From assembly GCA_027077805.1 (NCBI GenBank), contig JALWTS010000041.1, positions 73,234-137,233 of the forward strand: DNA of 64,000 nt, written 5' to 3'. How positions within the stretch are numbered: position 1 is the first letter of the stretch; every line of letters starts with the position of its first letter. The notes beneath the pieces were generated by a model. It did no database searches, was not told the origin of the DNA, and worked only from the letters and a program-made list of their open reading frames with translations. The DNA is from Gammaproteobacteria bacterium. Its GTDB lineage: Bacteria; Pseudomonadota; Gammaproteobacteria; JABHGC01. A program made the position numbers and the translations under genes. Of the stretch, positions 1-56,088 are shown piece after piece.

Positions 1-248
1 GGTGGGGGAAAATTGTCCGTAATGGCCATATCCGTTGTTAAAGTTTGGCTACTAATAAAACCAATGCCTTGTTGTACTGCCCATGCTTGATAAAATGCAA
101 TATCTGGCAACCGCACTTGGGTGGCGATGGCTTCTAACAAAGGAATTTTTTGTTGCCTTGCCATTTTTTTCAACTCGGTTAATTGTTCTGTGGTAATTAG
201 CCCTTGTGCGACACCCGCTTCAATTAATTGCCCTGAACTAACGCCCAT
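1..248 (-). CDS. Partial CDS (N-terminus only; gene continues past the window start): T2SSE_N / MshEN-type N-terminal domain, probably the start of a GspE/PilB/MshE-family pilus assembly ATPase
   Basis: Minus-strand ATG at 248-246 overlaps the 3' end of the upstream PilT-like gene. Translation is MGVSSGQLIEAGVAQGLITTEQLTELKKMARQQKIPLLEAIATQVRLPDIAFYQAWAVQQGIGFISSQTLTTD..., which matches the spacing pattern of GspE/PilB N-terminal domains (L..GLIT.EQL......Q......L...L.......D.......A...G..F). Confidence 0.45.
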   Translation of the reverse strand, partial: MGVSSGQLIEAGVAQGLITTEQLTELKKMARQQKIPLLEAIATQVRLPDIAFYQAWAVQQGIGFISSQTLTTDMAITDNFPP

Positions 249-1308
249 ACAATCCCCTTTGACGAAGTTGGCTTTGTAAAATATCGGGATAATGGGCAGT
301 TTTTATGGCTAAGGCTTTATCAATCACTTGTTGTTTGACTAAATCAGCCAAAGATTGCTCCAAAGTTTGCATCCCTGAATCGGTGGTAGCCGATTCCATC
401 ACACTATAAACTTGTTGGGTTTTATGATGACGGATTAGATTTGCTACCGCAGGATTAATCATTAAAATTTCTAAGGCAGGCACACGCCCTTCGCCTTGTT
501 TTATGGGTAATAATCGCTGTGCGACTACGGCACGCAATACGCGTGATAATTGTTGGCGTACCATCGCTTGTTCTTCCGCAGGAAATGATCCTAAAATCCG
601 CTCAATCACGCCAACCGCATCCCCCGTATGCAAGGTTGAAAACACCAAATGCCCCGTTTCTGCCGCAGTAATAGCTACTCGCATCGTCTCTAAATCTCGC
701 ATTTCACCGACTAATATCACATCAGGGTCTTCTCGTAATGCTGACCGAATGGCTTGCGGATAACTGGGGACATCTAAATGCAATTCCCGTTGATGTACTA
801 AGCTCTGAATATTTTGATGCAAATATTCAATGGGGTCTTCAATGGTTAAAATATGACAGGCTCGATCTTGATTAATTTTATGGATTAGTTGGGCTAAGGT
901 AGTCGTTTTACCACTACCCGTTGCACCTGTTACTAAAACCAAGCCGTCTTTTAAACCACATAATTGATATAATTGCTCAGGCAAACCTAAAGATTGTAAG
1001 GAGCGAAATCGACTGTCTAAATAACGCACCGCTAACGCAGGCTGTTGGCGTTCATAATAAATATTGATCCGAAACCGTTGCCCACTGTTTAAGGAATAAG
1101 CAAAATCAATGCTTTTGTCTTGCTGATAGGATTGTAATAAATTATCAGGGACTATTTGTTGAATCATGGCCTCAATTTGTGGCAAACTTAAACACTCACC
1201 CAATGGTTTTAATTGCCCATGTTGGCGTAAATAAATCGGTTGATTGACGCTAATATGTAAATCAGAGCCTTGTTGCTCAATACATTGTTGTAATAATAAA
1301 TCAAACAT
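238..1308 (-). CDS. PilT-family type IV pilus retraction ATPase (third PilT/PilU paralog in the window)
   Basis: 356 aa. Walker A is GATGSGKTTTL, Walker B is DVILVGEMRD, the His-box TGHLVFSTLHT is present, and the PilT-type AIRNLIRE-like motif AVANLIRHHK is present. Length and architecture are typical of PilT. Confidence 0.8.
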   Translation of the reverse strand: MFDLLLQQCIEQQGSDLHISVNQPIYLRQHGQLKPLGECLSLPQIEAMIQQIVPDNLLQSYQQDKSIDFAYSLNSGQRFRINIYYERQQPALAVRYLDSRFRSLQSLGLPEQLYQLCGLKDGLVLVTGATGSGKTTTLAQLIHKINQDRACHILTIEDPIEYLHQNIQSLVHQRELHLDVPSYPQAIRSALREDPDVILVGEMRDLETMRVAITAAETGHLVFSTLHTGDAVGVIERILGSFPAEEQAMVRQQLSRVLRAVVAQRLLPIKQGEGRVPALEILMINPAVANLIRHHKTQQVYSVMESATTDSGMQTLEQSLADLVKQQVIDKALAIKTAHYPDILQSQLRQRGLYGR

Positions 1309-1925
1309 TAAAATGCCAATACCAGTTGAATATCAATCAGTTGAATCGGCTGAATCGCCGTTTTTGCGTTGCTTTCTAATAAATTCAATGCAAAATACAC
1401 CACATGGACTTTTTTAGAGAGTTGATCTAAGCCCGCAAGAAATCGCCGAAAATTAGCATAAGTGCTGAGTAATTTTAAATGTTCTAAGTTTAAACTTGAC
1501 CAGACCAAGCTGTCTTTGCCTAATAAGGGATGTCGGGGTTGTTCGGATTGTAAATAAGGACTGACTTCCATGACTTTAATCCCACTCGCCTTTGCCAATT
1601 GGCTAATTTCTAATTTTAAGGCTTGACGTTGATTAACTGAGTTAGGGTCTAAATAGGCTTGTTTAAGTTGTTGCAATTTTTCACTGCTCGCGTTTAAAGC
1701 CGCCTCTAATTGGGTTAATTTCGGTTGTAATTGTTGATATTGTTTGGGAATTTTAGGCAATACAATTTTTTTTAAATCTTGTTCTAAGATTTGTTGTTGT
1801 TCTTCTAACAAGGCTAATTGTTTTTTCGCAGGTAAATATCGAGCTAATACATAAGTAGCGACAATGATTGATCCGCCTAATATTGCCATTAATACTTGCT
1901 CTCTTAAGCTAATATTAGAAAACAT
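1308..1925 (-). CDS. PilO/MshJ-like pilus assembly protein (N-terminal TM helix plus coiled coil)
   Basis: 205 aa with a single N-terminal TM segment followed by a Q/L-rich coiled coil. Its operon position is after a PilM/N-like gene, and it overlaps the next gene by a start/stop. Confidence 0.4.
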   Translation of the reverse strand: MFSNISLREQVLMAILGGSIIVATYVLARYLPAKKQLALLEEQQQILEQDLKKIVLPKIPKQYQQLQPKLTQLEAALNASSEKLQQLKQAYLDPNSVNQRQALKLEISQLAKASGIKVMEVSPYLQSEQPRHPLLGKDSLVWSSLNLEHLKLLSTYANFRRFLAGLDQLSKKVHVVYFALNLLESNAKTAIQPIQLIDIQLVLAF

Positions 1926-3372
1926 TTGCTTTCCCGTCCATGGGTTTAAGTTTTAACTTAATCTGATAACCGGATAAGTCTAATCGTCCTGTTTGAGCTG
2001 TAATGCTTAAATGTGCTACTGTCCACTGCCAAGCCATTAATGCTTGGGTTAATTGTTTAGCAAATTGTTGGCCTGATGATTCCTCTAATGACCATGCTTG
2101 AATTTGAATGTTCTGATTGCTTTCTATAATTTTGTCTAAGACCATTTGGGCATTCATGCTTTGAATAATCGCATCTAACAAGCCTTTAACCAAAGCACTG
2201 CGTTGTGGCAAGATATGATCAAATAAAGCAATTTGTTGTTGGTTTTGCTCTAATTGTTGTTGTTGCTGTTGCAGTTTGGTTTTTAATTTCGTCACTTTAT
2301 CATGCAATGCCTGAATCTTATCTTTATCTTGCTGACGTTTGACAAGTTCGGTTTCAGTGGCATTCATGTCAGTTAATAATAACTGTTTACGTTGATACAA
2401 CTGCCCTTCAATCAAAGCAATGGCAACAAACACTGCCACGATGCTCAGTCCTAAGCAATAACGAGGTTGTTGATACCAAGGTGGCGGTGGTTGACTAGCG
2501 GTTAAGTAAATTGCCATTTGCTCATCATATTGTTGCCAAGTATGTTGAGCTAAAGCTAACATCGCAAACTGAGCAGGTGTTAATTCTTGCTCAGGCAATG
2601 GCGATTCAATTGCCAACACCTCAATATTAAACACCTGAGCCAAATTGTTTAATTCTTGAGCAAGACGACAATCAAGTGTGATGTATAAACGTAATATTCT
2701 AATCTCATCTGTGATCAGCGTATGTAATAAATCAATCACTTGATCTAAATCAGGTTCCATTTGAGGGATAAATCGAGTTTGCAATCCAACTAATTGCCCT
2801 TGTTGTCGTTGTAAGCCTGACAAGCTATGGGGATAAATTTCTAGCAATAGCTCATTGTCATTGGTCAAATAATTCAAACCACTGCCAATCAATGGATAAA
2901 TGGCATGCAAATACAAACCCGAGGATTCCACTAGATTTAACCATTGTTGATAAATCGTCTGATTCATCCCTGCTACCCAATAACTCGTTTCATTCAGTTC
3001 CGACATACCCGCTTGCAAATGCCAGTTCGTTTGCAATGCTTGCTCTTCATTCCACTGCCATCCCCAAACATTCGCTTGTTCTGAGAGTAATGGCTCTAAT
3101 TCCCATTGAATATTGTCTTGAATCTGCTCCCCTAAACCTACGCTTTGTTCTGCCATAAGATGAGGGATTAATTCGTGGGTAATAACAATGGCTTTTTTGG
3201 GAAGTTTGGGAATTTGTTGGAGTAAATTCGGTAAATCTTGGGCTAGGTTTTCGAGTGGGCAAGCGATAGTTTGTTGGATTTTGGCTTGGGATTTATTGGT
3301 TATTAAAACAATAACATCAAGCGAAATTCCATTAGAATATATGACTAACAATGGTGATTGATGGTTTAACAT
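1915..3372 (-). CDS. PilM-PilN-like fusion (MshI-like) pilus biogenesis protein
   Basis: 485 aa. About 290 N-terminal residues show a PilM-like pattern, then a single TM helix (YCLGLSIVAVFVAIALIEGQLY), then a long Q-rich coiled coil like PilN/MshI. Size matches MshI (about 480 aa). Confidence 0.4.
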   Translation of the reverse strand: MLNHQSPLLVIYSNGISLDVIVLITNKSQAKIQQTIACPLENLAQDLPNLLQQIPKLPKKAIVITHELIPHLMAEQSVGLGEQIQDNIQWELEPLLSEQANVWGWQWNEEQALQTNWHLQAGMSELNETSYWVAGMNQTIYQQWLNLVESSGLYLHAIYPLIGSGLNYLTNDNELLLEIYPHSLSGLQRQQGQLVGLQTRFIPQMEPDLDQVIDLLHTLITDEIRILRLYITLDCRLAQELNNLAQVFNIEVLAIESPLPEQELTPAQFAMLALAQHTWQQYDEQMAIYLTASQPPPPWYQQPRYCLGLSIVAVFVAIALIEGQLYQRKQLLLTDMNATETELVKRQQDKDKIQALHDKVTKLKTKLQQQQQQLEQNQQQIALFDHILPQRSALVKGLLDAIIQSMNAQMVLDKIIESNQNIQIQAWSLEESSGQQFAKQLTQALMAWQWTVAHLSITAQTGRLDLSGYQIKLKLKPMDGKANVF

Positions 3373-4302
3373 TTAAGGCACTACCCAATCAAAATCAAGC
3401 ACGGCAACAGTACGTGGAATAAACGTATAAATCAGCGGTTTTGCTGTGCTAGGATAAAGATTATCCGTACAAGTGCTAGTGCCTGTGTTATATTCGTAAA
3501 CACCAATGGCACGAATACCGATGGGAAAACGCTTGCTATTATCAATGCTAAAATTAATCGTTTGTTCAGAGGTACTCACAGCCAAAGTATGATCATCACT
3601 TTCTAAAGCAATCAAACTGCCATTGCTAGGATACCATAATTTTAAACATAGTGATTTAGAAGCCGATGAAGCACTAAAAGTTACTGCGATATTATTGGGT
3701 AATAAGGCAAAATGATCTGCTTGTTCCACTAAATCCCCGCTGCTAGGGTAATCCTTCTCGTAATCATCGCTACCACCAATCACGCCATCTAAGCCTTTGC
3801 TTTGCACTGTTAATATGGTGGAATTTGCCGACACTATCCAACCAAAATCATCATCAGTGCCCACATTTTGCCAACCATCACGAAAGCGTTTCGCCCCATC
3901 TTTGGCATCCGCAATTACGGATAAATAAGGGCCATTCCAGCCTGACCATAATCCTGCTGTTGTATTAAAAGTTAAGCCTGTTATGGTATTACCACAGTCA
4001 GTAGTATTTTCCACTAATTCTTTTAAACAAGCAGGTAATTGCCCGACGTCTGCCACAAACCCCGAAATATTCGGCTGACCATTTACGGTTTGCTCAACAC
4101 TTCCTACTACTGCTTTTTTAATCATTTCTAAACGATTACGAGTATCTTCAAAGCGAATTTGACTGTCAGAATTTTGGGTAATCGATAAAGCGGATAAAGC
4201 GAGTGTCCCTAAAATTAGAATAACTAGCAATAACTCTAGTAAAGTAAAACCATTGCCAACAGAAAAATTATTATAAGATTGATTCTTCATTTTAATAAAC
4301 AT
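3373..4302 (-). CDS. Prepilin-type N-terminal cleavage/methylation domain protein (minor pilin or pseudopilin), 309 aa
   Basis: N-terminus is ...NGFTLLELLLVILILGTLALSALS, the class III signal G|FTLLE followed by a hydrophobic helix. Confidence 0.6.
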   Translation of the reverse strand: MFIKMKNQSYNNFSVGNGFTLLELLLVILILGTLALSALSITQNSDSQIRFEDTRNRLEMIKKAVVGSVEQTVNGQPNISGFVADVGQLPACLKELVENTTDCGNTITGLTFNTTAGLWSGWNGPYLSVIADAKDGAKRFRDGWQNVGTDDDFGWIVSANSTILTVQSKGLDGVIGGSDDYEKDYPSSGDLVEQADHFALLPNNIAVTFSASSASKSLCLKLWYPSNGSLIALESDDHTLAVSTSEQTINFSIDNSKRFPIGIRAIGVYEYNTGTSTCTDNLYPSTAKPLIYTFIPRTVAVLDFDWVVP

Positions 4303-4952
4303 ACGACAATATCATCACTATTAGTATTAGCACTACAAATATCAGAGGCATTGTTACCCGCATAAACACCATCTTTGCCCATGCTGACAATTCTGGCTTT
4401 ATTATCATCCTCTAAATTAAACAATAAATACGGTCGTCCCCATTTTTCATAGACTTCACCACTACGACTTTGCCATTGTAAATAACTACCAATGGCTTTA
4501 TGTTGATAAGGATCAGCAATGGCTGCAATATTAGTTAGAACACTACCCGCATCAGGCTGTCCCGTGCCATCTAAGCCTAAATCATCCCCAATATCAAGCA
4601 AACCTTCCCCAAAACGAGACACATAAGGCCCTCGCCAACCACGTCCCCGATCAATATCCCAACTATCTTCCGCCCCTTGTTCTAATAAACCTGAAAAATC
4701 AGCAGGTGATAAGCCTGTCATATCAGGAAAATGTCCTAAATCTTGACGAAACTGCAACAAGGCTTTTTTTAACTCCAAAATCTCATGTCTAGCAATTTGA
4801 TCTTTACTATCCGTATCCACCGAACCAAACGATGCCACCATTGCCCCACCAATCACGGCTAAAATCCCCACCACAAGCATCAACTCCAACAAGCTAAACC
4901 CTTGCTGATTTTTCCGTTGATGTTGAAAATTAGTCTTGATATTCAAAGCCAC
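4287..4952 (-). CDS. Prepilin-type N-terminal cleavage/methylation domain protein, 221 aa
   Basis: QQGFSLLELMLVVGILAVIGGAMVA pilin-type leader and helix. Confidence 0.6.
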   Translation of the reverse strand: MALNIKTNFQHQRKNQQGFSLLELMLVVGILAVIGGAMVASFGSVDTDSKDQIARHEILELKKALLQFRQDLGHFPDMTGLSPADFSGLLEQGAEDSWDIDRGRGWRGPYVSRFGEGLLDIGDDLGLDGTGQPDAGSVLTNIAAIADPYQHKAIGSYLQWQSRSGEVYEKWGRPYLLFNLEDDNKARIVSMGKDGVYAGNNASDICSANTNSDDIVVCLLK

Positions 4953-5376
4953 TGATTAATACTCCTGGCCCATATTTTGAGTTATAGACTTTATAGCCAA
5001 ACCATTGTAATTTATCGCCAACCTTATGTTCAGCGGTAATTTTATCCGCAATGCTTTGTTCAATGTAAAAGTTAATGGTTTTGCCTTGATTCGATTGTAA
5101 TTCAATGCCTTGTTTCACAATAGGAATGGGATTGACATTCATATTGACAAAAATTTCTTGCAAATAACTGGTTTTTCTGGGTTTTGGCAGTTGATTAATG
5201 CTTGCTGGAAATTGAATTTTTAAAAAGGGTAAAATCTCTACTGTACCTGCGCTATTTGGCACTGAGCTTACAATTAAATTATCTAAATCAACTGTTTTAA
5301 ATGCTGAGACCGCTATCCCTATAGGGGAATAGACCATAACCCATAGGAATAGCATCCATTGTATTTTCATTATCAT
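4930..5376 (-). CDS. Hypothetical exported protein in the pilus operon (Sec signal peptide)
   Basis: 148 aa with a hydrophobic N-terminal signal (MLFLWVMVYSPIGIAVSAF) and no pilin motif. It sits between pilin genes. Confidence 0.3.
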   Translation of the reverse strand: MIMKIQWMLFLWVMVYSPIGIAVSAFKTVDLDNLIVSSVPNSAGTVEILPFLKIQFPASINQLPKPRKTSYLQEIFVNMNVNPIPIVKQGIELQSNQGKTINFYIEQSIADKITAEHKVGDKLQWFGYKVYNSKYGPGVLISGFEYQD

Positions 5377-5448
5377 TGGCTCATCCTTAAAACAAACTCA
5401 AGGCGATAGTGAAACACTACCACCTTGGTTAGCAAGTATGTTAAATAA

Positions 5449-6450
5449 TTAGGATTTTTGACCCGTAAATTCGGCAAATTCTTCGTCTAAGAAATCACCA
5501 TTAGCATCAATAATCGCTTGCAAAATCGGTGTACCTTTTGCAGTAACCGTCCCTGTTGTGCCAGTACTCGCACGAGTACCATCGGTTGTATCATCATCAG
5601 TACCCACATTGATTAACAAAACATAACGACTATATTTATCTTTAGCGATCCCACCATAATAAGGGGCTTGAGATAATAAATTTTCCCCGCCGACAATGCT
5701 AGCATTATTTCCTAAGCCTAGACCAATTAAAACCGCATCCGCATCCGCACCTATTTTAGTATTATTAACGCCATTCGTTCCACGATTCCATACCATCACA
5801 ATGGCTTCATGACTATCTGAAGGATCATGAATCTCTCTAGCAAATCCACGTCCACGATTCTTACCCGAGGTTGGTGCATCAAAACCACGATTAGGAATAT
5901 CAACATCCACTAAATTACCCGTTGGAAAACCCGCCGGTGCCCCATCCGCATTGTCATCATTGTTACAGGTTGTAAGTTCCGCATAACGAATTTTAATAAT
6001 GCCTGCATTATCTAAGGCTTCTCCGAAACTTTCGTGAAGTTTCACTAAACTAAATTTACCTGCCAATTTTTGACTGACACCACCACCAACACCCGGAAGG
6101 TTACTTGAACCACCATATTTAGACGCATTTGCCGGAGTGGCATCAGCAGGATGATCCACCGCACCGTCTAACAAACTAGGATCCGCCCCTACTGAAATAC
6201 AAGCTAAAGAATCTAATTCATCAGGCAATGCCCCCTCGTTGACATTATACAAACGAACCGCTTGCTCAATCGCTGCCAGAGAATGGGTTGCCGCCCCTTT
6301 GGATGCTTTGGCTTCCTGCCCATCTAAACTAGCAACAACTGTACCGCCAATAATGGCCAAAATCCCAATCACTACTAATAATTCCAACAAGGTAAACCCT
6401 TGTTGTTGTTTTTGCATTTGTTTCATTTCGCTTCCTTTAAAAAAATACAC
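5449..6450 (-). CDS. Large pilin-like protein (prepilin leader; about 320 aa; Gly/Thr/Asp/Asn-rich C-terminal region)
   Basis: MKQMQKQQQGFTLLELLVVIGILAIIGGTVVASL is a type IV pilin leader. It is unusually long for a major pilin. The true start is probably at an internal Met (M8 or M11 of the ORF). Confidence 0.55.
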   Translation of the reverse strand: MYFFKGSEMKQMQKQQQGFTLLELLVVIGILAIIGGTVVASLDGQEAKASKGAATHSLAAIEQAVRLYNVNEGALPDELDSLACISVGADPSLLDGAVDHPADATPANASKYGGSSNLPGVGGGVSQKLAGKFSLVKLHESFGEALDNAGIIKIRYAELTTCNNDDNADGAPAGFPTGNLVDVDIPNRGFDAPTSGKNRGRGFAREIHDPSDSHEAIVMVWNRGTNGVNNTKIGADADAVLIGLGLGNNASIVGGENLLSQAPYYGGIAKDKYSRYVLLINVGTDDDTTDGTRASTGTTGTVTAKGTPILQAIIDANGDFLDEEFAEFTGQKS

Positions 6451-6490
6451 TCATTTCCCTCACAGAAACTGCAAATTTATAAATAAAAAT

Positions 6491-6709
6491 TTATGACCCC
6501 TCGCCAACTAAACTACTATTATCACTGCTATTATCATTACTATTCTTGAAATCAACCACATAACGATATTGCTTACCACAATGCAAAATGATTTCTTTTT
6601 GCCCTCGGCGTAAAATCCTCATTTCAATATGTAAGTCAGCAAAGCCATCATGAGAAACTAACTCATCATATAATTGCAAAATTTTGTTTTTGACTAATTG
6701 ATGTCCCAT
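6491..6709 (-). CDS. Small hypothetical protein (72 aa) immediately upstream of the pilin operon
   Basis: ORF only. The basic RILRRGQKEIILHCGKQYRYVVDF core and Ser/Asn/Asp tail fit no family I can assign. Confidence 0.25.
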   Translation of the reverse strand: MGHQLVKNKILQLYDELVSHDGFADLHIEMRILRRGQKEIILHCGKQYRYVVDFKNSNDNSSDNSSLVGEGS

Positions 6710-6851
6710 CGCTAATATTCAAAATAAACTTAAATGATAATTATTCGCAATTATATTAAGATTGAATTTAATTGCAAGGGTTTTTTTAAAAAATTAGAAA
6801 TTATTCCAAAACTGGCTAAACTTTGGGTAAGGTTTTTTTTGGAGAATTTTA

Positions 6852-7925
6852 ATGTATCAATGGTATTTCAGTCGTAATGGTCAACAAACGGGTCCTTTTA
6901 ACCAAGACCAAGCCAAAGCCCAAGCAATGATTAATCCAGAAGGTTATGCTTGGCGAGAAGGGTTTGCGGAATGGGTTCCAATTCGTGAGGTTGGCGAATT
7001 AAATGGGCAAGCACCCGCACCTAGTCCTAACCAAAATCAAAATCAAAATTTCAACCTAAACCAAAATTCCAACCAAAATCGAAACCTAGATAGTTTTTCC
7101 CCATCATTAGCATCAAGTTCACAATCCTCAGATGTGATTGACTTTAAAATTATTGGCAATGAAATGCAGTTTGTAGAAGTTGAACTTGATCCAGAGGAAA
7201 GTGCGGTGGCAGAAGCAGGTGCGATGATGTACAAGCATCCGCAAGTTGAAATGGAAAGTGTGTTTGGTGATGGCTCGAAACAAAGTCAAAGTAATAGTTT
7301 TTTTGGTAATTTATTAGGGGCTGGTCAACGTTTAATCACAGGGGAAAGTTTATTTACTACTGTGTTTACTCACAAAGGATCAGGTAAAGCCCATGTGGCA
7401 TTTGCCGCCCCTTATCCAGGGAATATCATCCCGATTATGTTACCTAATGTGGGCGGAACATTAATCTGTCAAAAAGATAGCTTTTTATGTGCGGCTAAAG
7501 GCGTGTCCATTGGTTTGCATTTTCAAAGAAAAATTTTGACAGGTTTATTTGGTGGCGAAGGCTTTATTATGCAAAAACTTGAAGGGGATGGTTTAGTCTT
7601 TGTGCATGCAGGTGGGACAGTTGTGGAACGAGTATTAAATATGGGTGAAACCTTACATGTGGATACGGGTTGTGTGGTTGCGATGGAAGCCAGTGTTGAT
7701 TTTGATATTCAAAAAGCGGGGGGCATTAAAACCATGTTATTTGGTGGTGAGGGTTTATTTTTTGCGACCTTGCAAGGACCGGGTAAAATCTGGTTGCAAT
7801 CCCTACCCTTTTCACGTTTGGCAGGACGAATGTTAGCAGCGGCACCACAAACAAGCGGATTTACGCAGGGTGAAGGTTCAATTTTAGGTAATGTTGGCGG
7901 ATTTTTAGATGGGGATAATTTTTAA
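6852..7925 (+). CDS. AIM24 family protein (TIGR00266/DUF124) with an N-terminal GYF-like (DUF4339) domain and a poly-Asn/Gln linker
   Basis: N-terminus is WYFSRNGQQTGPF...GYAWREGFAEWVPIREVGEL (GYF-like). The C-terminal 250 aa (FKIIGNEMQFVEVELD...GEGLFFATLQGPGKIWLQSLPFSRLA) matches the AIM24 family. Confidence 0.65.
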   Translation: MYQWYFSRNGQQTGPFNQDQAKAQAMINPEGYAWREGFAEWVPIREVGELNGQAPAPSPNQNQNQNFNLNQNSNQNRNLDSFSPSLASSSQSSDVIDFKIIGNEMQFVEVELDPEESAVAEAGAMMYKHPQVEMESVFGDGSKQSQSNSFFGNLLGAGQRLITGESLFTTVFTHKGSGKAHVAFAAPYPGNIIPIMLPNVGGTLICQKDSFLCAAKGVSIGLHFQRKILTGLFGGEGFIMQKLEGDGLVFVHAGGTVVERVLNMGETLHVDTGCVVAMEASVDFDIQKAGGIKTMLFGGEGLFFATLQGPGKIWLQSLPFSRLAGRMLAAAPQTSGFTQGEGSILGNVGGFLDGDNF

Positions 7926-53790: not shown

Positions 53791-54945
53791 CTATCCCCCA
53801 AATTGAATTTCATCGTCCTCATCTTCCTCACCCTCAAGCGATAGTTCCTGCATTCTTGAACCGCCCCGAGACTTCGCATCCCCTTTACTGCCTAATTTAA
53901 TCATCAAACGAACATTATTAGGTGAGTCAGCATGACGCAGTGCATCATCATAACTAATTTCACCTTGGGTATATAAATCATACAAGGCTTGGTCAAATGT
54001 CTGCATACCTTGCTCAGTAGAACGAGTCATTAATTCTTTAATTTTATGTACTTCCCCTTTGTGAATTAAATCACTCATTAATGGAGTATTAATTAAAATT
54101 TCAACGGCACAACGCCGACCTTCACCATCTTTAGTCGGAATTAACTGTTGGGCAATAATCGCTTTTAAATTTAATGATAAGTCTGTTAACAACTGGGCAC
54201 GACGCTCTTCAGGAAAGAAGTTGATAATTCTATCTAAGGCTTGGTTAGCATTATTAGCATGCAGTGTTGATAAACACAAATGCCCTGTTTCCGCAAAGGC
54301 AATGCCATAATCCATGGTTTCCCGAGTACGAATTTCCCCAATTAGAATCACATCAGGTGCTTGACGTAAGGTATTTTTTAAAGCAACATCATAAGACTCA
54401 GTATCTAAGCCAACCTCACGCTGAGTTACAATACAGCCATCATGGTTGTGAATAAATTCAACGGGATCTTCAATGGTAATAATATGACCACTACTATTAC
54501 GATTACGATAACCAATGACGGATGCTAAAGAAGTGGATTTACCTGTACCCGTTGCCCCCACAAAAATAACTAATCCCCGCTTACACATGGCAATACTTTT
54601 CATTACATCGGGTAAATGTAGGTCCTCAAACCTTGGAATATTCGTTTCAATTCGCCGCAATACCATACCAACCGCATCGCGTTGCACAAATGCACTGACC
54701 CGAAACCGTCCAACTTTACTAGCACTAATGGCAAAGTTACACTCTTTAGTGCGTTCAAACTCTTCCCGTTGTTGGCTGGTCATAATGTTTAATACCAATT
54801 CTCTGGATTGCGCAATTGATAAGGGATTTTTAGACACAGGTGTCATACGACCACTTACTTTAATAGTGGGTGCGGCACCTGCGGTAATAAATAAATCAGA
54901 ACCACCTTTGGCCTTCATTAATTTTAATAAGGCATTAAAATCCAT
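53791..54945 (-). CDS. pilU: Type IV pilus ATPase PilU
   Basis: MDFNALLKLMKAKGGSDLFITAGAAPTIKVSGR… with Walker A GATGTGKST. It is downstream of pilT as in Pseudomonas. Confidence 0.85.
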   Translation of the reverse strand: MDFNALLKLMKAKGGSDLFITAGAAPTIKVSGRMTPVSKNPLSIAQSRELVLNIMTSQQREEFERTKECNFAISASKVGRFRVSAFVQRDAVGMVLRRIETNIPRFEDLHLPDVMKSIAMCKRGLVIFVGATGTGKSTSLASVIGYRNRNSSGHIITIEDPVEFIHNHDGCIVTQREVGLDTESYDVALKNTLRQAPDVILIGEIRTRETMDYGIAFAETGHLCLSTLHANNANQALDRIINFFPEERRAQLLTDLSLNLKAIIAQQLIPTKDGEGRRCAVEILINTPLMSDLIHKGEVHKIKELMTRSTEQGMQTFDQALYDLYTQGEISYDDALRHADSPNNVRLMIKLGSKGDAKSRGGSRMQELSLEGEEDEDDEIQFGG

Positions 54946-54956
54946 GAATTCCTCCT

Positions 54957-55994
54957 TTATTTAAAGTTATCTTTATTCGCCGCCTTCATTTGTGCATCTT
55001 GTTTGGTGATTAAACCACGACGTAGCAGTTCTGCCAAATGTTGATCTAAGGTCTGCATACCAACACCCTGTCCCGTTTGAATGGCTGAAAACATTTGGGC
55101 AATTTTATCTTCACGAATCAAATTACGAATGGCAGGTGTGCCAATCATAATTTCCCAAGCGGCAGTTCGCCCCCCCCCCACTTTCTTTAATAAGGACTGA
55201 GCAATCACGGCCCGCAATGATTCGGATAACATTGAACGTACCATACCTTTTTCCGCTGCAGGAAATACATCCACAATCCTATCAATGGTTTTCGCGGCAG
55301 AACTAGTATGCAAGGTGCCAAACACTAAGTGTCCTGTTTCAGCAGCAGTCAATGCTAAGCGAATCGTTTCCAAGTCCCGCAACTCACCCACTAGAATAAT
55401 ATCGGGATCTTGACGTAATGCGGAACGTAATGCTTCATTAAATCCTAAAGTATCACGTTTGATTTCCCGTTGGTTAATCAAACATTTTTTACTTTTGTGT
55501 ACAAATTCAATCGGGTCTTCAATGGTTAAAATATGACCGTACTCGGTATCATTTTTATAATCAATCATTGCCGCTAAAGTCGTTGACTTACCAGAACCTG
55601 TTGGCCCTGTTACTAAGATAATTCCTCTAGGATTATCGGCAATCGTTTTGAATACATCAGGACAACCTAAATCTTCCAAACTCAAAATTTTAGATGGAAT
55701 GGTACGAAACACGGCACCTGCACCACGATCTTGGTTAAAAGCATTCACCCGAAAACGAGCAAGCCCCGGAATTTCAAATGAAAAGTCACATTCTAAATAC
55801 TCCTCATAATCCCGCCGTTGTTTATCATTCATAATATCATACACCAAACTATGTACAGCTTTATGATCTAATGGTGGCATGTTAATACGACGCACATCAC
55901 CATCTACCCGAATCATAGGTGGTAAACCCGCTGATAAATGTAAATCTGAGGAATTATTTTTCACCCCAAATGCTAGCAATTCTGAAATATCCAT
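54957..55994 (-). CDS. pilT: Type IV pilus retraction ATPase PilT
   Basis: MDISELLAFGVKNNSSDLHLSAGLPPMIRVDGDVRRI… is near-identical in pattern to P. aeruginosa PilT. The AIRNLIRE motif is present. It contains a G10 tract (plus-strand C10 at 55170-55179) encoding VGGGR. Confidence 0.9.
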   Translation of the reverse strand: MDISELLAFGVKNNSSDLHLSAGLPPMIRVDGDVRRINMPPLDHKAVHSLVYDIMNDKQRRDYEEYLECDFSFEIPGLARFRVNAFNQDRGAGAVFRTIPSKILSLEDLGCPDVFKTIADNPRGIILVTGPTGSGKSTTLAAMIDYKNDTEYGHILTIEDPIEFVHKSKKCLINQREIKRDTLGFNEALRSALRQDPDIILVGELRDLETIRLALTAAETGHLVFGTLHTSSAAKTIDRIVDVFPAAEKGMVRSMLSESLRAVIAQSLLKKVGGGRTAAWEIMIGTPAIRNLIREDKIAQMFSAIQTGQGVGMQTLDQHLAELLRRGLITKQDAQMKAANKDNFK

Positions 55995-56088
55995 CAATCT
56001 AACCTTATAAAATAAAAAAGCCTTTGTTTAATTATAGACAAACCCCATTATATTTAAATCGTAACTTAGGTTTAAATCACTAAAAATC

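What the first reader, a model, noticed from the sequence alone, without database searches (positions are those of the whole stretch)
1..6709. Unusual type IV pilus / MSHA-like cluster: three large prepilin-type proteins, a PilM-PilN-like fusion, a PilO-like protein, an embedded PilT-type retraction ATPase and an MshEN-domain ATPase start
Seen directly: the genes are co-oriented and tightly packed (start/stop overlaps at 1308, 1915-1925, 4287-4302 and 238-248). There are three proteins with G|F(T/S)LLE prepilin leaders of 221, 309 and 333 aa, far larger than canonical 140-170-aa major pilins. There is a 485-aa protein with a PilM-like N-domain, a TM helix and a Q-rich coiled coil (MshI-like fusion), and a PilO/MshJ-like protein. 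Next comes a full PilT-family ATPase, and then the N-terminus of a protein with a T2SSE_N/MshEN domain. That domain class is known to bind c-di-GMP in MshE, which is established knowledge. Inference: retraction ATPases are normally encoded away from pilin/assembly operons, so a dedicated PilT inside a minor-pilin/alignment-complex operon, followed by a probable c-di-GMP-responsive extension ATPase, suggests a self-contained, separately regulated second pilus (MSHA-, Tad- or T2SS-like hybrid) distinct from the canonical pilT/pilU system at 53.8-56 kb. The secretin, platform protein and prepilin peptidase are not in this window.
Basis: partly seen in the sequence, partly recalled or inferred. 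Interest (0 to 1): 0.55.

Follow-up and report, generated by a model that had tools for sequence, protein, structure and literature searches.

The report
Self-contained pilus cassette with own PilT
The left end of the window holds most of a 12-gene operon for a complete, probably retractable type IV pilus-like machine; the same cassette recurs in at least seven bacterial phyla, fits none of the named pilus or secretion classes I tested, and I found no description of it in the paper library.

Summary
The gene content described is real. Nine co-oriented minus-strand genes at 1-6709 are the first nine of a 12-gene operon. I recovered the rest on the source contig: the full extension ATPase, a platform protein, a PilP-like protein and a secretin.

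- **Retraction ATPase.** The 356-aa protein is a true PilT-family ATPase. It belongs to a cassette-specific subgroup: 48-62% identical across phyla, but 42% identical to the genome's own PilT.
- **Conservation.** The same gene order recurs in Nitrospinota, Nitrospirota, Desulfobacterota, Planctomycetota, Omnitrophota and Alpha-, Beta- and Gammaproteobacteria. This includes cultured Rubrivivax gelatinosus and Methylotenera mobilis.
- **Family-specific proteins.** Two proteins have no Pfam, NCBIfam or PDB match: a 72-aa cytoplasmic protein (2230 sequence clusters) and a periplasmic protein. Both co-occur with PilT.
- **No named class fits.** No component reaches the GspD/E/F/G, PilB, PilQ or MshL model cut-offs. 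MshM and MshN are absent.

Best reading: a distinct, uncharacterised retractile type IV filament built from about 315-residue pilins. Function is unknown.

The parts
6750..6777 (-). Sigma-70-like promoter candidate (TTGCAA-16-TATAAT) upstream of the first gene of the operon
   Evidence: the best-scoring site in the region (10 of 12 matches). The number of sites found equals the number expected by chance, so this is only a candidate.
6491..6709 (-). g01: 72-aa cytoplasmic protein of an unannotated family (core HDGYGEIRIEMKILRRGQKEVIVHCGKQYRYVVD). It is the first gene of the cassette.
   Evidence: No Pfam, NCBIfam or PDB match. 2230 homologous 90%-identity clusters, all named 'hypothetical'. 5 of 5 homologues looked up head the same cassette. 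Present in 12 of 13 PilT-containing loci with covered upstream sequence and in 0 of 7 PilT-less loci.
5449..6426 (-). g02: probable major pilin. The prepilin is 325 aa (about 315 aa mature) with leader MKQMQKQQQG|FTLLE and a conserved acidic C-terminal motif IIDANGDFLDEEFAEFTGQK.
   Evidence: Pfam N_methyl 32 bits. Alignment of 22 orthologues, each 296-390 aa. The PDB profile search matches only the N-terminal helix. First pilin gene, set apart by intergenic spacers, and duplicated in tandem in L013 and L017.
5399..5427 (-). Terminator- or attenuator-like hairpin directly after the g02 pilin gene
   Evidence: 13-bp stem followed by a T-rich tail; dG -20.9 kcal/mol here, and comparable GC-rich hairpins after g02 in about 14 of 20 related loci.
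4930..5376 (-). g03: 148-aa protein with a signal peptide and no prepilin motif; family-specific, function unknown
   Evidence: No Pfam, NCBIfam or PDB match. Orthologues in 14 loci (HMM E 1e-46 to 1e-59). Absent from all PilT-less loci. In most loci it follows g04, whereas here it precedes g04.
4287..4952 (-). g04: 221-aa GspG-like (pseudo)pilin
   Evidence: Pfam N_methyl and T2SSG above cut-off. TIGR01710 gspG 50.8 bits, below its cut-off of 88.85. The family profile's best PDB hit is GspG 5wda (E 8.6e-15), and it also matches soluble GspG domains.
3373..4302 (-). g05: 309-aa prepilin-type protein (310-486 aa in orthologues) with GspG-like motifs (GWxGPYL, DGWxN, SxGxDG); probable minor or tip pilin
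   Evidence: N_methyl 20.3 bits. Alignment of 23 orthologues. PDB profile hits are confined to the N-terminal helix. The true start may be M5 at 4290, which would give an ATGA overlap with the g04 stop codon.
1915..3372 (-). g06: 485-aa PilM-PilN-type fusion. It has a cytoplasmic actin-like domain, a TM helix, a coiled coil of about 100 residues and a C-terminal alpha/beta domain.
1308..1925 (-). g07: 205-aa PilO/GspM-like bitopic protein
   Evidence: Alone it gives only T2SSM at E 0.034. Of 18 orthologues, 9 hit Pfam PilO (best 1.9e-5), 7 hit T2SSM_b and 4 hit T2SSM. The family profile's top PDB hit is M. xanthus PilO 3jc8_Oa (E 0.0065).
238..1308 (-). g08: 356-aa PilT-family ATPase of a cassette-specific subgroup (motif AVANLIRHHK in place of AIRNLIREDK)
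   Evidence: TIGR01420 418 bits against a cut-off of 319. PDB: PilT from several species, E 1e-88 to 1e-75. 43% and 37% identity by BLASTP to the window's PilT and PilU. 48-62% identity to cassette PilTs in 13 other loci, against 39-45% between those and the window's PilT. Walker A, Walker B and His-box motifs are intact (alignment).
1..248 (-). g09 (first 82 residues only): extension ATPase of the GspE/PilB family. The full length is 532 aa on the source contig.
   Evidence: Pfam T2SSE 411 bits plus MshEN 34 bits at residues 61-139. GspE 469 bits (cut-off 630) and PilB 457 bits (cut-off 676), so both cut-offs are missed. Walker A is present in all 14 orthologues and the tetracysteine CxxC...CxxC motif in 13 of 14. 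The c-di-GMP motif is absent.

Best explanation
The region is the promoter-proximal three quarters of a 12-gene operon. It encodes a complete type IV filament machine of a distinct, conserved and apparently unnamed subtype.

**Shown**
- The gene set is: a small cytoplasmic protein (g01), a roughly 315-residue pilin (g02), a periplasmic protein (g03), two GspG-like pilins (g04, g05), a PilM-PilN fusion (g06), a PilO-like protein (g07) and a PilT-family ATPase (g08). Just beyond the window edge come a GspE/PilB-type ATPase with a zinc-finger motif (g09), a GspF/PilC-type platform protein (g10), a PilP-like protein (g11) and a secretin (g12).
- This set and its order are conserved across at least seven phyla.

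**Inferred mechanism**
1. A prepilin peptidase encoded elsewhere cleaves the three prepilins.
2. g04 and g05 prime the filament on the platform protein.
3. The extension ATPase polymerises g02 into a filament that passes through the secretin. The PilMN-PilO-PilP-like subcomplex links the motor to the secretin.
4. The dedicated PilT paralogue replaces the extension ATPase at the platform and retracts the filament.

The likely outcome is a dynamic surface pilus used for attachment or pulling. g01 probably acts with, or regulates, the PilT step or operon expression, because it is gained and lost together with PilT. g03 shows the same pattern in all but two of the PilT-containing loci. The biological role (adhesion, motility or uptake) is not determined.
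For: - **Completeness and gene order:**
- **Conservation of the cassette in 20+ loci:** these include Nitrospina, Nitrospirota, Hyphomicrobiales, Chromatiales, Moritella, Alteromonadaceae, Methylotenera mobilis 13, Planctomycetota, Omnitrophota and Anammoxibacter, plus Rubrivivax gelatinosus, Desulfobulbus and Desulfobacter.
- **PilM-PilN fusion:**
- **PilO-like and PilP-like at family level:**
- **PilT family with intact catalytic motifs, forming a cassette-specific subgroup:**
- **Extension-type ATPase features:**
- **g02 as the major subunit:** it is the first pilin gene and is followed by a strong hairpin here and in about 14 of 20 loci. It is duplicated in tandem in two loci. In the Methylophilaceae variant a Wzy_C+Wzy_C_2 protein lies next to it. 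I know that domain pair from pilin O-glycosylases of the PglL/TfpO type (own knowledge).
- **Co-occurrence of g01 and g03 with PilT:**
Against: - No experiment exists for any member, and no filament has been seen.
- E, F, D and G all score best against T2SS models, so an endopilus or secretion role is not excluded.
- Only three prepilins are encoded, fewer than the four minor pilins usual for T4aP and T2SS tip complexes. None has Pro22.
- The assignment of g02, and not the GspG-like g04, as the major subunit is inferred from gene organisation only.
- One clade of variants works without PilT, so retraction is not obligatory for the family.
- The prepilin peptidase is not in the cassette.
Confidence: 0.6

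Rival explanations
1. It is a T2SS-like protein secretion system. A short periplasmic endopilus of GspG-like subunits pushes substrates through the secretin, and the embedded PilT-family ATPase actively disassembles the endopilus. The substrates would be g03 or unlinked exoproteins.
For: - The best profile matches of the ATPase, platform, secretin and pilins are GspE, GspF, GspD and GspG.
- The PilM-PilN fusion has the same architecture as GspL, and g07 orthologues hit T2SSM and T2SSM_b.
- A signal-peptide protein (g03) is encoded among the pilin genes.
Against: - None of the GspD/E/F/G equivalog cut-offs is reached.
- No GspC with a PDZ domain and no GspH/I/J/K-type pseudopilins were found.
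- PilT is characteristically absent from T2SS (PMC6668835).
- A leading pilin of about 315 residues, followed by its own hairpin, looks like a major surface pilin.
- No conserved candidate exoprotein genes flank the cassette.
Confidence: 0.2
2. It is an orthologue of the MSHA pilus, with a c-di-GMP-activated MshE-type extension ATPase.
For: - Single-locus organisation, a PilM-PilN fusion like MshI, and a PilO-like protein like MshJ.
- No prepilin peptidase in the locus, as reported for MSH loci (PMC6668835).
- A Pfam MshEN hit on the ATPase.
Against: - The c-di-GMP motif is absent in 14 of 14 orthologues, even in its relaxed form.
- MshM is mandatory in the published MSH model, yet MshM and MshN are both absent from the 12 genes.
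- The secretin scores 151 bits against the MshL cut-off of 250.
- The gene order differs: here pilins come first and the secretin last. In V. cholerae msh the secretin precedes the ATPase and the pilins come last (my own knowledge).
- MSHA has no PilT of its own.
Confidence: 0.05
3. It is a divergent but otherwise ordinary T4aP locus (a second copy of the twitching or competence pilus), not a separate class.
For: - PilM-like, PilO-like, PilP-like and PilT-family components are present.
- T4aP is polyphyletic and diverse in published trees (PMC6668835).
- pilB-pilT-pilC adjacency is known in Geobacter and Myxococcus.
Against: - The PilB and PilQ model cut-offs are not reached.
- PilM and PilN are fused.
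- The pilins are GspG-like.
- No PilY1 or FimU/PilVWX-type genes were recognised.
- Two conserved family-specific proteins have no counterpart in the T4aP models scanned.
- The cassette PilT forms its own subgroup, separate from the genome's canonical PilT and PilU.
Confidence: 0.15

Closest known systems
Type IVa pilus (PilA, PilB/C/D, PilMNOPQ, PilT/U)
   Different: - PilM and PilN are fused.
- All genes sit in one operon.
- The pilins are GspG-like, 2-3 times larger, and lack Pro22.
- Only three prepilins are encoded, and no PilY1 was recognised.
- The PilB and PilQ models are not met.
- There are two extra family-specific proteins (g01, g03).
MSHA pilus (mshHIJKLMNEGF-BACDOPQ of Vibrio cholerae)
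   Same: It is encoded in a single locus, has a PilM-PilN fusion (like MshI) and a PilO-like protein (like MshJ), carries no prepilin peptidase in the locus, and has the Pfam MshEN domain on the ATPase.
   Different: - There is no MshM or MshN.
- The MshL model cut-off is not met.
- The c-di-GMP-binding motifs are absent.
- The gene order differs.
- It has its own PilT inside the operon, whereas MSHA borrows the T4aP PilT (PMC7096442 abstract, and my own knowledge).
Type II secretion system (GspC-M)
   Same: The best-scoring profiles for the ATPase, platform, secretin and one pilin are GspE, GspF, GspD and GspG. The GspL and GspM architecture (fused actin-like domain with a bitopic protein, plus a partner protein) is also shared.
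   Different: - All scores fall below the equivalog cut-offs.
- No GspC, H, I, J or K were found.
- A PilT-family ATPase is present.
- The leading pilin is about 315 residues.
- The gene order is different.
Operons with an embedded retraction ATPase: EPEC bundle-forming pilus (bfpF) and the Geobacter/Myxococcus pilB-pilT-pilC arrangement
   Same: A PilT-family gene lies inside or next to the assembly genes, so an embedded retraction motor has precedent (PMC5065972; bfpF from my own knowledge).
   Different: BFP is a T4bP with a lipoprotein secretin and a different accessory set. The Geobacter and Myxococcus loci are canonical T4aP with separate pilM and pilN genes and small or medium pilins.

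Membership tests
Type IV filament superfamily | Class III signal-peptide pilins (G|FxxxE), a GspE/PilB-family ATPase and a GspF/PilC-family platform protein (plus a secretin in diderms) | tested here: met
   N_methyl and the G|F(T/S)LLE leader in three proteins. T2SSE 411 bits, T2SSF 186 bits and Secretin 133 bits.
PilT/PilU retraction ATPases (TIGR01420) | Score above the curated cut-off of the subfamily model; no N-terminal GSPII domain; Walker A, Walker B and His box present | tested here: met
   418 bits against a cut-off of 319. 356 aa, aligned end to end with PilT structures. The catalytic motifs are visible in the alignment. The AIRNLIRE motif has diverged to AVANLIRH.
Type II secretion system | GspD, GspE, GspF and GspG reaching the NCBIfam equivalog cut-offs | tested here: not met
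   GspE 469 against 630, GspF 294 against 424, GspD 186 against 351. GspG 50.8 and 40.9 against 88.85.
Type II secretion system | Minor pseudopilins GspH/I/J/K, GspC, and no PilT | tested here: not met
   Only weak N-terminal-helix matches to gspH, gspI and gspJ. g11 orthologues hit PilP (6 of 14) and not T2SSC (1 of 14). A PilT-family gene is present.
MSHA pilus | MshM (mandatory in the TXSScan MSH model, PMC6668835) and MshN present in the locus | tested here: not met
   None of the 12 cassette proteins has an ExeA/MshM-like AAA domain or a TPR MshN-like match. This was judged from Pfam listings, not from dedicated MshM or MshN profiles.
MSHA pilus | Secretin reaching the MshL equivalog model (TIGR02519) | tested here: not met
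   151 bits against a cut-off of 250.
c-di-GMP-binding MshEN domains | Two tandem 24-residue motifs RLGxx(L/V/I)(L/V/I)xxG(L/V/I)(L/V/I)xxxxLxxxLxxQ separated by 5 residues (PMC5013675) | tested here: not met
   Neither the strict regex nor the paper's relaxed regex matches the first 200 residues of the window protein or of 13 orthologues. The alignment shows I or L in place of the Gly of RLG, and no second-motif glycines. Binding itself was not tested.
Type IVa pilus | PilB (TIGR02538) and PilQ (TIGR02515) model cut-offs | tested here: not met
   PilB 457 against 676 and PilQ 124 against 284.
Type IVa pilus | Separate PilM and PilN; a minor pilin set FimU/PilVWXE with PilY1 | tested here: not met
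   A single 485-aa polypeptide contains both the PilM-like and the PilN-like parts. There are only three prepilins, and no family scan gave a PilY1 match.
PilM / GspL / MshI-type alignment proteins | Actin-like (FtsA/PilM) cytoplasmic fold joined to a bitopic PilN-like segment | tested here: met
Tad/Flp pilus | A TadA/CpaF-type ATPase, split TadB/TadC platform proteins and short Flp pilins | tested here: not met
   The TadA-family model gives only 46-60 bits against a cut-off of 373. There is a single 407-aa platform protein with two T2SSF repeats. The pilins are 221-333 aa.

The most novel reading that the evidence does not exclude
The cassette defines an unnamed class of type IV filament that is T2SS/MSH-like in its core proteins but has kept its own PilT. 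It may be a surviving intermediate between T4aP and the PilT-less MSH and T2SS lineages. In this class a three-gene module is gained and lost as a unit and controls retraction of a filament built from the largest major pilins yet noted (about 315 residues). The module comprises PilT, the 72-aa cytoplasmic protein g01 and the periplasmic protein g03. g01 would then be a new kind of small partner or regulator of a pilus retraction motor.
Probability: 0.3. Interest if true: 0.65.

Novelty: new variant of a known kind. Interest (0 to 1): 0.5.

Why it matters
Type IV filaments are sorted into a handful of classes (T4aP, T4bP, Tad, MSH, T2SS, Com). Many systems found in genomes remain labelled 'generic'.

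This cassette is a coherent, widely spread member of that unclassified remainder. Its marker protein g01 has 2230 sequence clusters. Its carriers include nitrite oxidisers, anammox relatives, sulfate reducers, methylotrophs and marine gammaproteobacteria.

Three things make it useful to study:
- **A natural with/without-PilT comparison inside one family.** This bears on how retraction motors were lost on the way to MSH and T2SS.
- **Major pilins about 50% larger than the 'unusually large' 208-residue M. xanthus PilA** (PMC11046646).
- **Two conserved proteins of unknown function tied to the retraction ATPase.**

Cultured carriers (Rubrivivax gelatinosus, Methylotenera mobilis) make these questions directly testable.

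It is not a new principle, because every core part has a known counterpart.

Tried and rejected
- **Word-indexed homologue search with the 485-aa protein.** It found only itself. Repeating it with the 82-sequence profile found only two proteins, probably because Q-rich low-complexity words swamped candidate selection. The exhaustive HMMER search was needed.
- **Single-sequence AlphaFold of the 485-aa protein.** The model was unusable (pLDDT 40). The alignment-based model superseded it.
- **The search for related loci with the full A1 alignment.** A 15-sequence subset centred on the ELVRWELEP motif worked.
- **Foldseek against afdb50.** The library was not available.
- **Profile searches against PDB sequences.** g01, g03 and g11 gave nothing, and g02 and g05 gave only N-terminal-helix matches.
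- **Plasmid search with the extension ATPase.** The best hit (41%, Methylomonas pUP202) is a different T2SS-like cluster, so there is no sign that the cassette is plasmid-borne.
- **Conserved neighbours.** An all-against-all comparison of flanking ORFs found only clade-specific ones.
- **Literature.** Five searches for a description of this system and one on large pilins found none. The library is incomplete, so this is absence of evidence only.
- **Reference phylogeny.** I considered placing the ATPase on a tree with GspE, PilB and MshE but dropped it, because no full-length MshE or broad T4aP reference set was reachable with these tools.
- **Rejected readings.** Tad-like hybrid, c-di-GMP-gated MshE, and chance ORFs.

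Full report
**1. What is in the window**

Positions 1-6709 carry nine co-oriented minus-strand ORFs. In transcription order:

| Gene | Coordinates | Length |
|---|---|---|
| g01 | 6709-6491 | 72 aa |
| g02 | 6450/6426-5449 | 333 aa from GTG; 325 aa from the ATG behind a GGAAG ribosome-binding site |
| g03 | 5376-4930 | 148 aa |
| g04 | 4952-4287 | 221 aa |
| g05 | 4302-3373 | 309 aa |
| g06 | 3372-1915 | 485 aa |
| g07 | 1925-1308 | 205 aa |
| g08 | 1308-238 | 356 aa |
| g09 | starts at 248, runs off the edge | first 82 aa only |

g02, g04 and g05 carry G|F(T/S)LLE leaders and are the only such ORFs in the 64 kb. Pfam and NCBIfam results:
- N_methyl on all three prepilins, with the 309-aa protein just under the cut-off.
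- T2SSG above cut-off on g04.
- TIGR01420 pilT_fam at 418 bits (cut-off 319) on g08.
- Nothing significant on g01, g03, g06 or g07.

**2. The rest of the operon**

An exact-sequence look-up of g08 recovered the source contig, a 91-kb metagenome scaffold (locus L001). The operon continues with:
- the full 532-aa ATPase (Pfam T2SSE 411 bits, MshEN 34 bits at residues 61-139);
- a 407-aa T2SSF platform protein;
- a 129-aa protein with a weak PilP match;
- a 580-aa secretin.

After that come a convergent PIN-toxin pair and rnf genes.

The machine is therefore complete except for a prepilin peptidase. No component reaches the curated cut-off of a named equivalog:

| Model | Score (bits) | Cut-off (bits) |
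|---|---|---|
| GspE | 469 | 630 |
| PilB | 457 | 676 |
| GspF | 294 | 424 |
| GspD | 186 | 351 |
| MshL | 151 | 250 |
| PilQ | 124 | 284 |
| GspG | 51 | 89 |

Against solved structures the ATPase scores slightly higher with GspE (358-361 bits) than with PilF (333-343) or PilB (309-324). It has Walker A and the tetracysteine motif of assembly ATPases.

**3. The two alignment proteins**

g06 had no detectable relatives by word-indexed search. Exhaustive HMMER found 243 cluster representatives, mostly 550-630 aa and 20-29% identical. Ten of these were scanned and none reaches a Pfam cut-off.

With 82 of them as an alignment, AlphaFold gave a confident model (pLDDT 91.9). It shows an N-terminal actin-like domain, a helix of about 100 residues that starts with the TM segment, and a C-terminal alpha/beta domain.

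- Foldseek ranks P. aeruginosa PilM first (E 4e-12), followed by PulL/GspL cytoplasmic domains and FtsA.

g07 alone gives only T2SSM at E 0.034. Across 18 orthologues, 9 hit PilO, 7 hit T2SSM_b and 4 hit T2SSM. The family profile's top PDB hit is M. xanthus PilO. g11 orthologues hit PilP in 6 of 14 cases (best 4.6e-6) and share an invariant RDPF motif.

**4. A conserved cassette**

Look-ups of g06 homologues and a scan of one genome per species with the motif EL[VI]RWE[LMI]EP gave loci in many lineages:
- Chromatiales, Nitrospina, Nitrospirota, Hyphomicrobiales;
- Methylotenera mobilis 13 and other Methylophilaceae;
- Moritella, Alteromonadaceae, Pseudoalteromonas;
- Planctomycetota, Omnitrophota and Anammoxibacter.

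A phmmer table of all loci shows the same order everywhere: g01, g02, g04, g03, g05, g06, g07, g08, g09, g10, g11, g12. The window swaps g03 and g04 relative to most loci.

Flanking genes are conserved only within clades, so the cassette itself is the unit. At 90% identity every window protein is a singleton, so the source organism is sparsely sampled. Its taxonomy was not determined.

**5. The embedded PilT**

g08 aligns end to end with PilT crystal structures. It keeps the Walker A, Walker B and His-box motifs.

| Comparison | Identity |
|---|---|
| g08 vs the window's canonical PilT | 43% (BLASTP); 42% in the MAFFT alignment |
| g08 vs the window's PilU | 37% (BLASTP) |
| g08 vs cassette PilTs of 13 other loci | 48-62% |
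| those cassette PilTs vs the window's PilT | 39-45% |

The cassette PilTs share AVANLIRN/HxK in place of AIRNLIRE. It is therefore a dedicated paralogue that travels with the cassette.

A clade of betaproteobacterial loci and one Planctomycetota locus lack it. In a rough NJ tree of g09 these group together, nested among PilT-containing systems (no support values). This suggests secondary loss.

**6. Family-specific proteins**

g01 has no Pfam, NCBIfam or PDB match. It has 2230 homologous clusters, all 'hypothetical', with an almost invariant core. Five of five homologues looked up, including ones from Rubrivivax gelatinosus, Desulfobulbus and Desulfobacter, head the same cassette with PilT.

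g03 is a signal-peptide protein without a prepilin motif and without any family match.

HMM scans show:
- both g01 and g03 in 11 of the 13 PilT-containing loci that are covered;
- g01 but not g03 in L023, and neither in L024;
- neither in any of the 7 PilT-less loci.

These counts are not phylogenetically independent.

**7. The pilins**

g02 orthologues are 296-390 aa, with an invariant leader and a conserved acidic C-terminal motif. Outside the N-terminal helix no solved structure is detectable by sequence.

Three features fit a highly expressed major subunit, although this is inferred:
- g02 is the first pilin gene and is bracketed by intergenic spacers.
- It is followed by a strong hairpin here (5427-5399, dG -20.9) and in about 14 of 20 loci.
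- It is duplicated in tandem in two loci.

Solved T4aP major pilins are 111-161 residues, and the 208-residue M. xanthus PilA is called unusually large (PMC11046646). A mature g02 of about 315 residues would exceed that.

g04 is GspG-like (profile against 5wda, E 8.6e-15). g05 shares GspG-type motifs. None of the three has Pro22.

**8. The c-di-GMP claim**

c-di-GMP binding by MshEN needs two 24-residue motifs (PMC5013675). Neither the strict nor the authors' relaxed pattern occurs in the window protein or in 13 orthologues. The alignment shows the RLG glycine and the second-motif glycines replaced.

All assembly ATPases carry a GSPII/N1 domain, and only some bind c-di-GMP (PMC11656802). So the Pfam 'MshEN' label is not evidence of c-di-GMP control here.

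**9. Comparison and novelty**

The system works like a T4aP or MSH pilus with its own retraction motor.
- It fails the tested membership criteria for T2SS, MSH (MshM is mandatory in the published model), T4aP and Tad.
- An embedded PilT has precedent: Geobacter and Myxococcus pilB-pilT-pilC and bfpF (my own knowledge).
- Denise et al. describe PilT as ancestral and repeatedly lost, for example in T2SS. A T2SS/MSH-like system that keeps PilT would fit that picture as an intermediate, but I could not build the reference phylogeny.
- Six literature searches found no description of the system.

I rate it a new variant of a known kind, of moderate interest.

Noticed in passing
window 6491-6709 (-); L008 5486-5941, L009 5641-6096, L011 5647-6063; L030 10001-10526: In Nitrospina and Nitrospirota loci, homologues of the 72-aa g01 protein carry Arg-rich C-terminal tails with repeated ERRxxDRR-like units. 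In one Desulfobacter locus g01 occurs as two tandem copies. This hints at nucleic-acid binding or a regulatory role.
   Followed up: partly
L006 2463-3548, L029 3191-9149, L030 92-9787, L032 3452-8160; L028 3854-9762: In four Desulfobacterota loci the cassette is preceded by a divergent Crp/cNMP-binding regulator, two Peptidase_M75 (imelysin-like) genes and a DHOR di-haem gene. In Rubrivivax it is preceded by a TonB-dependent receptor and an ABC importer. This may link the system to iron acquisition, but the pattern is absent from the window.
   Followed up: no
L015 4893-6659 and orthologues in L013, L014, L021, L025; L014 18610-19554: The PilT-less Methylophilaceae variant has a Wzy_C+Wzy_C_2 protein directly upstream of the large pilin gene. 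I know that domain pair from PglL/TfpO-type pilin O-glycosylases (own knowledge). It also has a retropepsin-like aspartic protease downstream of the secretin. A retropepsin-like protease also sits near the unrelated T2SS-like cluster on Methylomonas plasmid pUP202 (L031 19456-20259).
   Followed up: partly
L006 6929-7240, L030 11761-12072, L029 11916-12233, L032 11631-11939: In Desulfobacterota variants a small protein of about 103 aa lies between the major pilin gene and g04. The two copies I translated (L006 and L030) have an LAGCG lipobox. It may be a pilotin, and the window has no counterpart.
   Followed up: partly
L019 18638-19108 and orthologues in L017, L020: The alteromonad variants have a Sel1-repeat protein directly after the secretin and a conserved 126-aa protein with no family match upstream of g01.
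   Followed up: partly
window 6852-7925 (+): A gene divergent from the operon encodes a GYF_2 plus AIM24 protein with an Asn/Gln-rich low-complexity linker (NQNQNQNFNLNQNSNQNRN).
   Followed up: no
L001 16087-16690 (beyond the left edge of the window): A PIN-domain toxin gene with a small upstream partner gene (a likely VapBC-type pair) lies convergent to the secretin gene and marks the end of the operon.
   Followed up: no
window 53791-55997 (-): The canonical pilT (346 aa, TIGR01420 511 bits) and pilU (384 aa, 446 bits) are confirmed. Together with g08, the window holds three PilT-family ATPases.
   Followed up: yes
window g02, g04, g05 N-termini: All three prepilins lack the Pro22 that is conserved in T4aP major pilins and GspG. 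Gly residues at positions 11 and 17/18 may take over the helix-breaking role.
   Followed up: no
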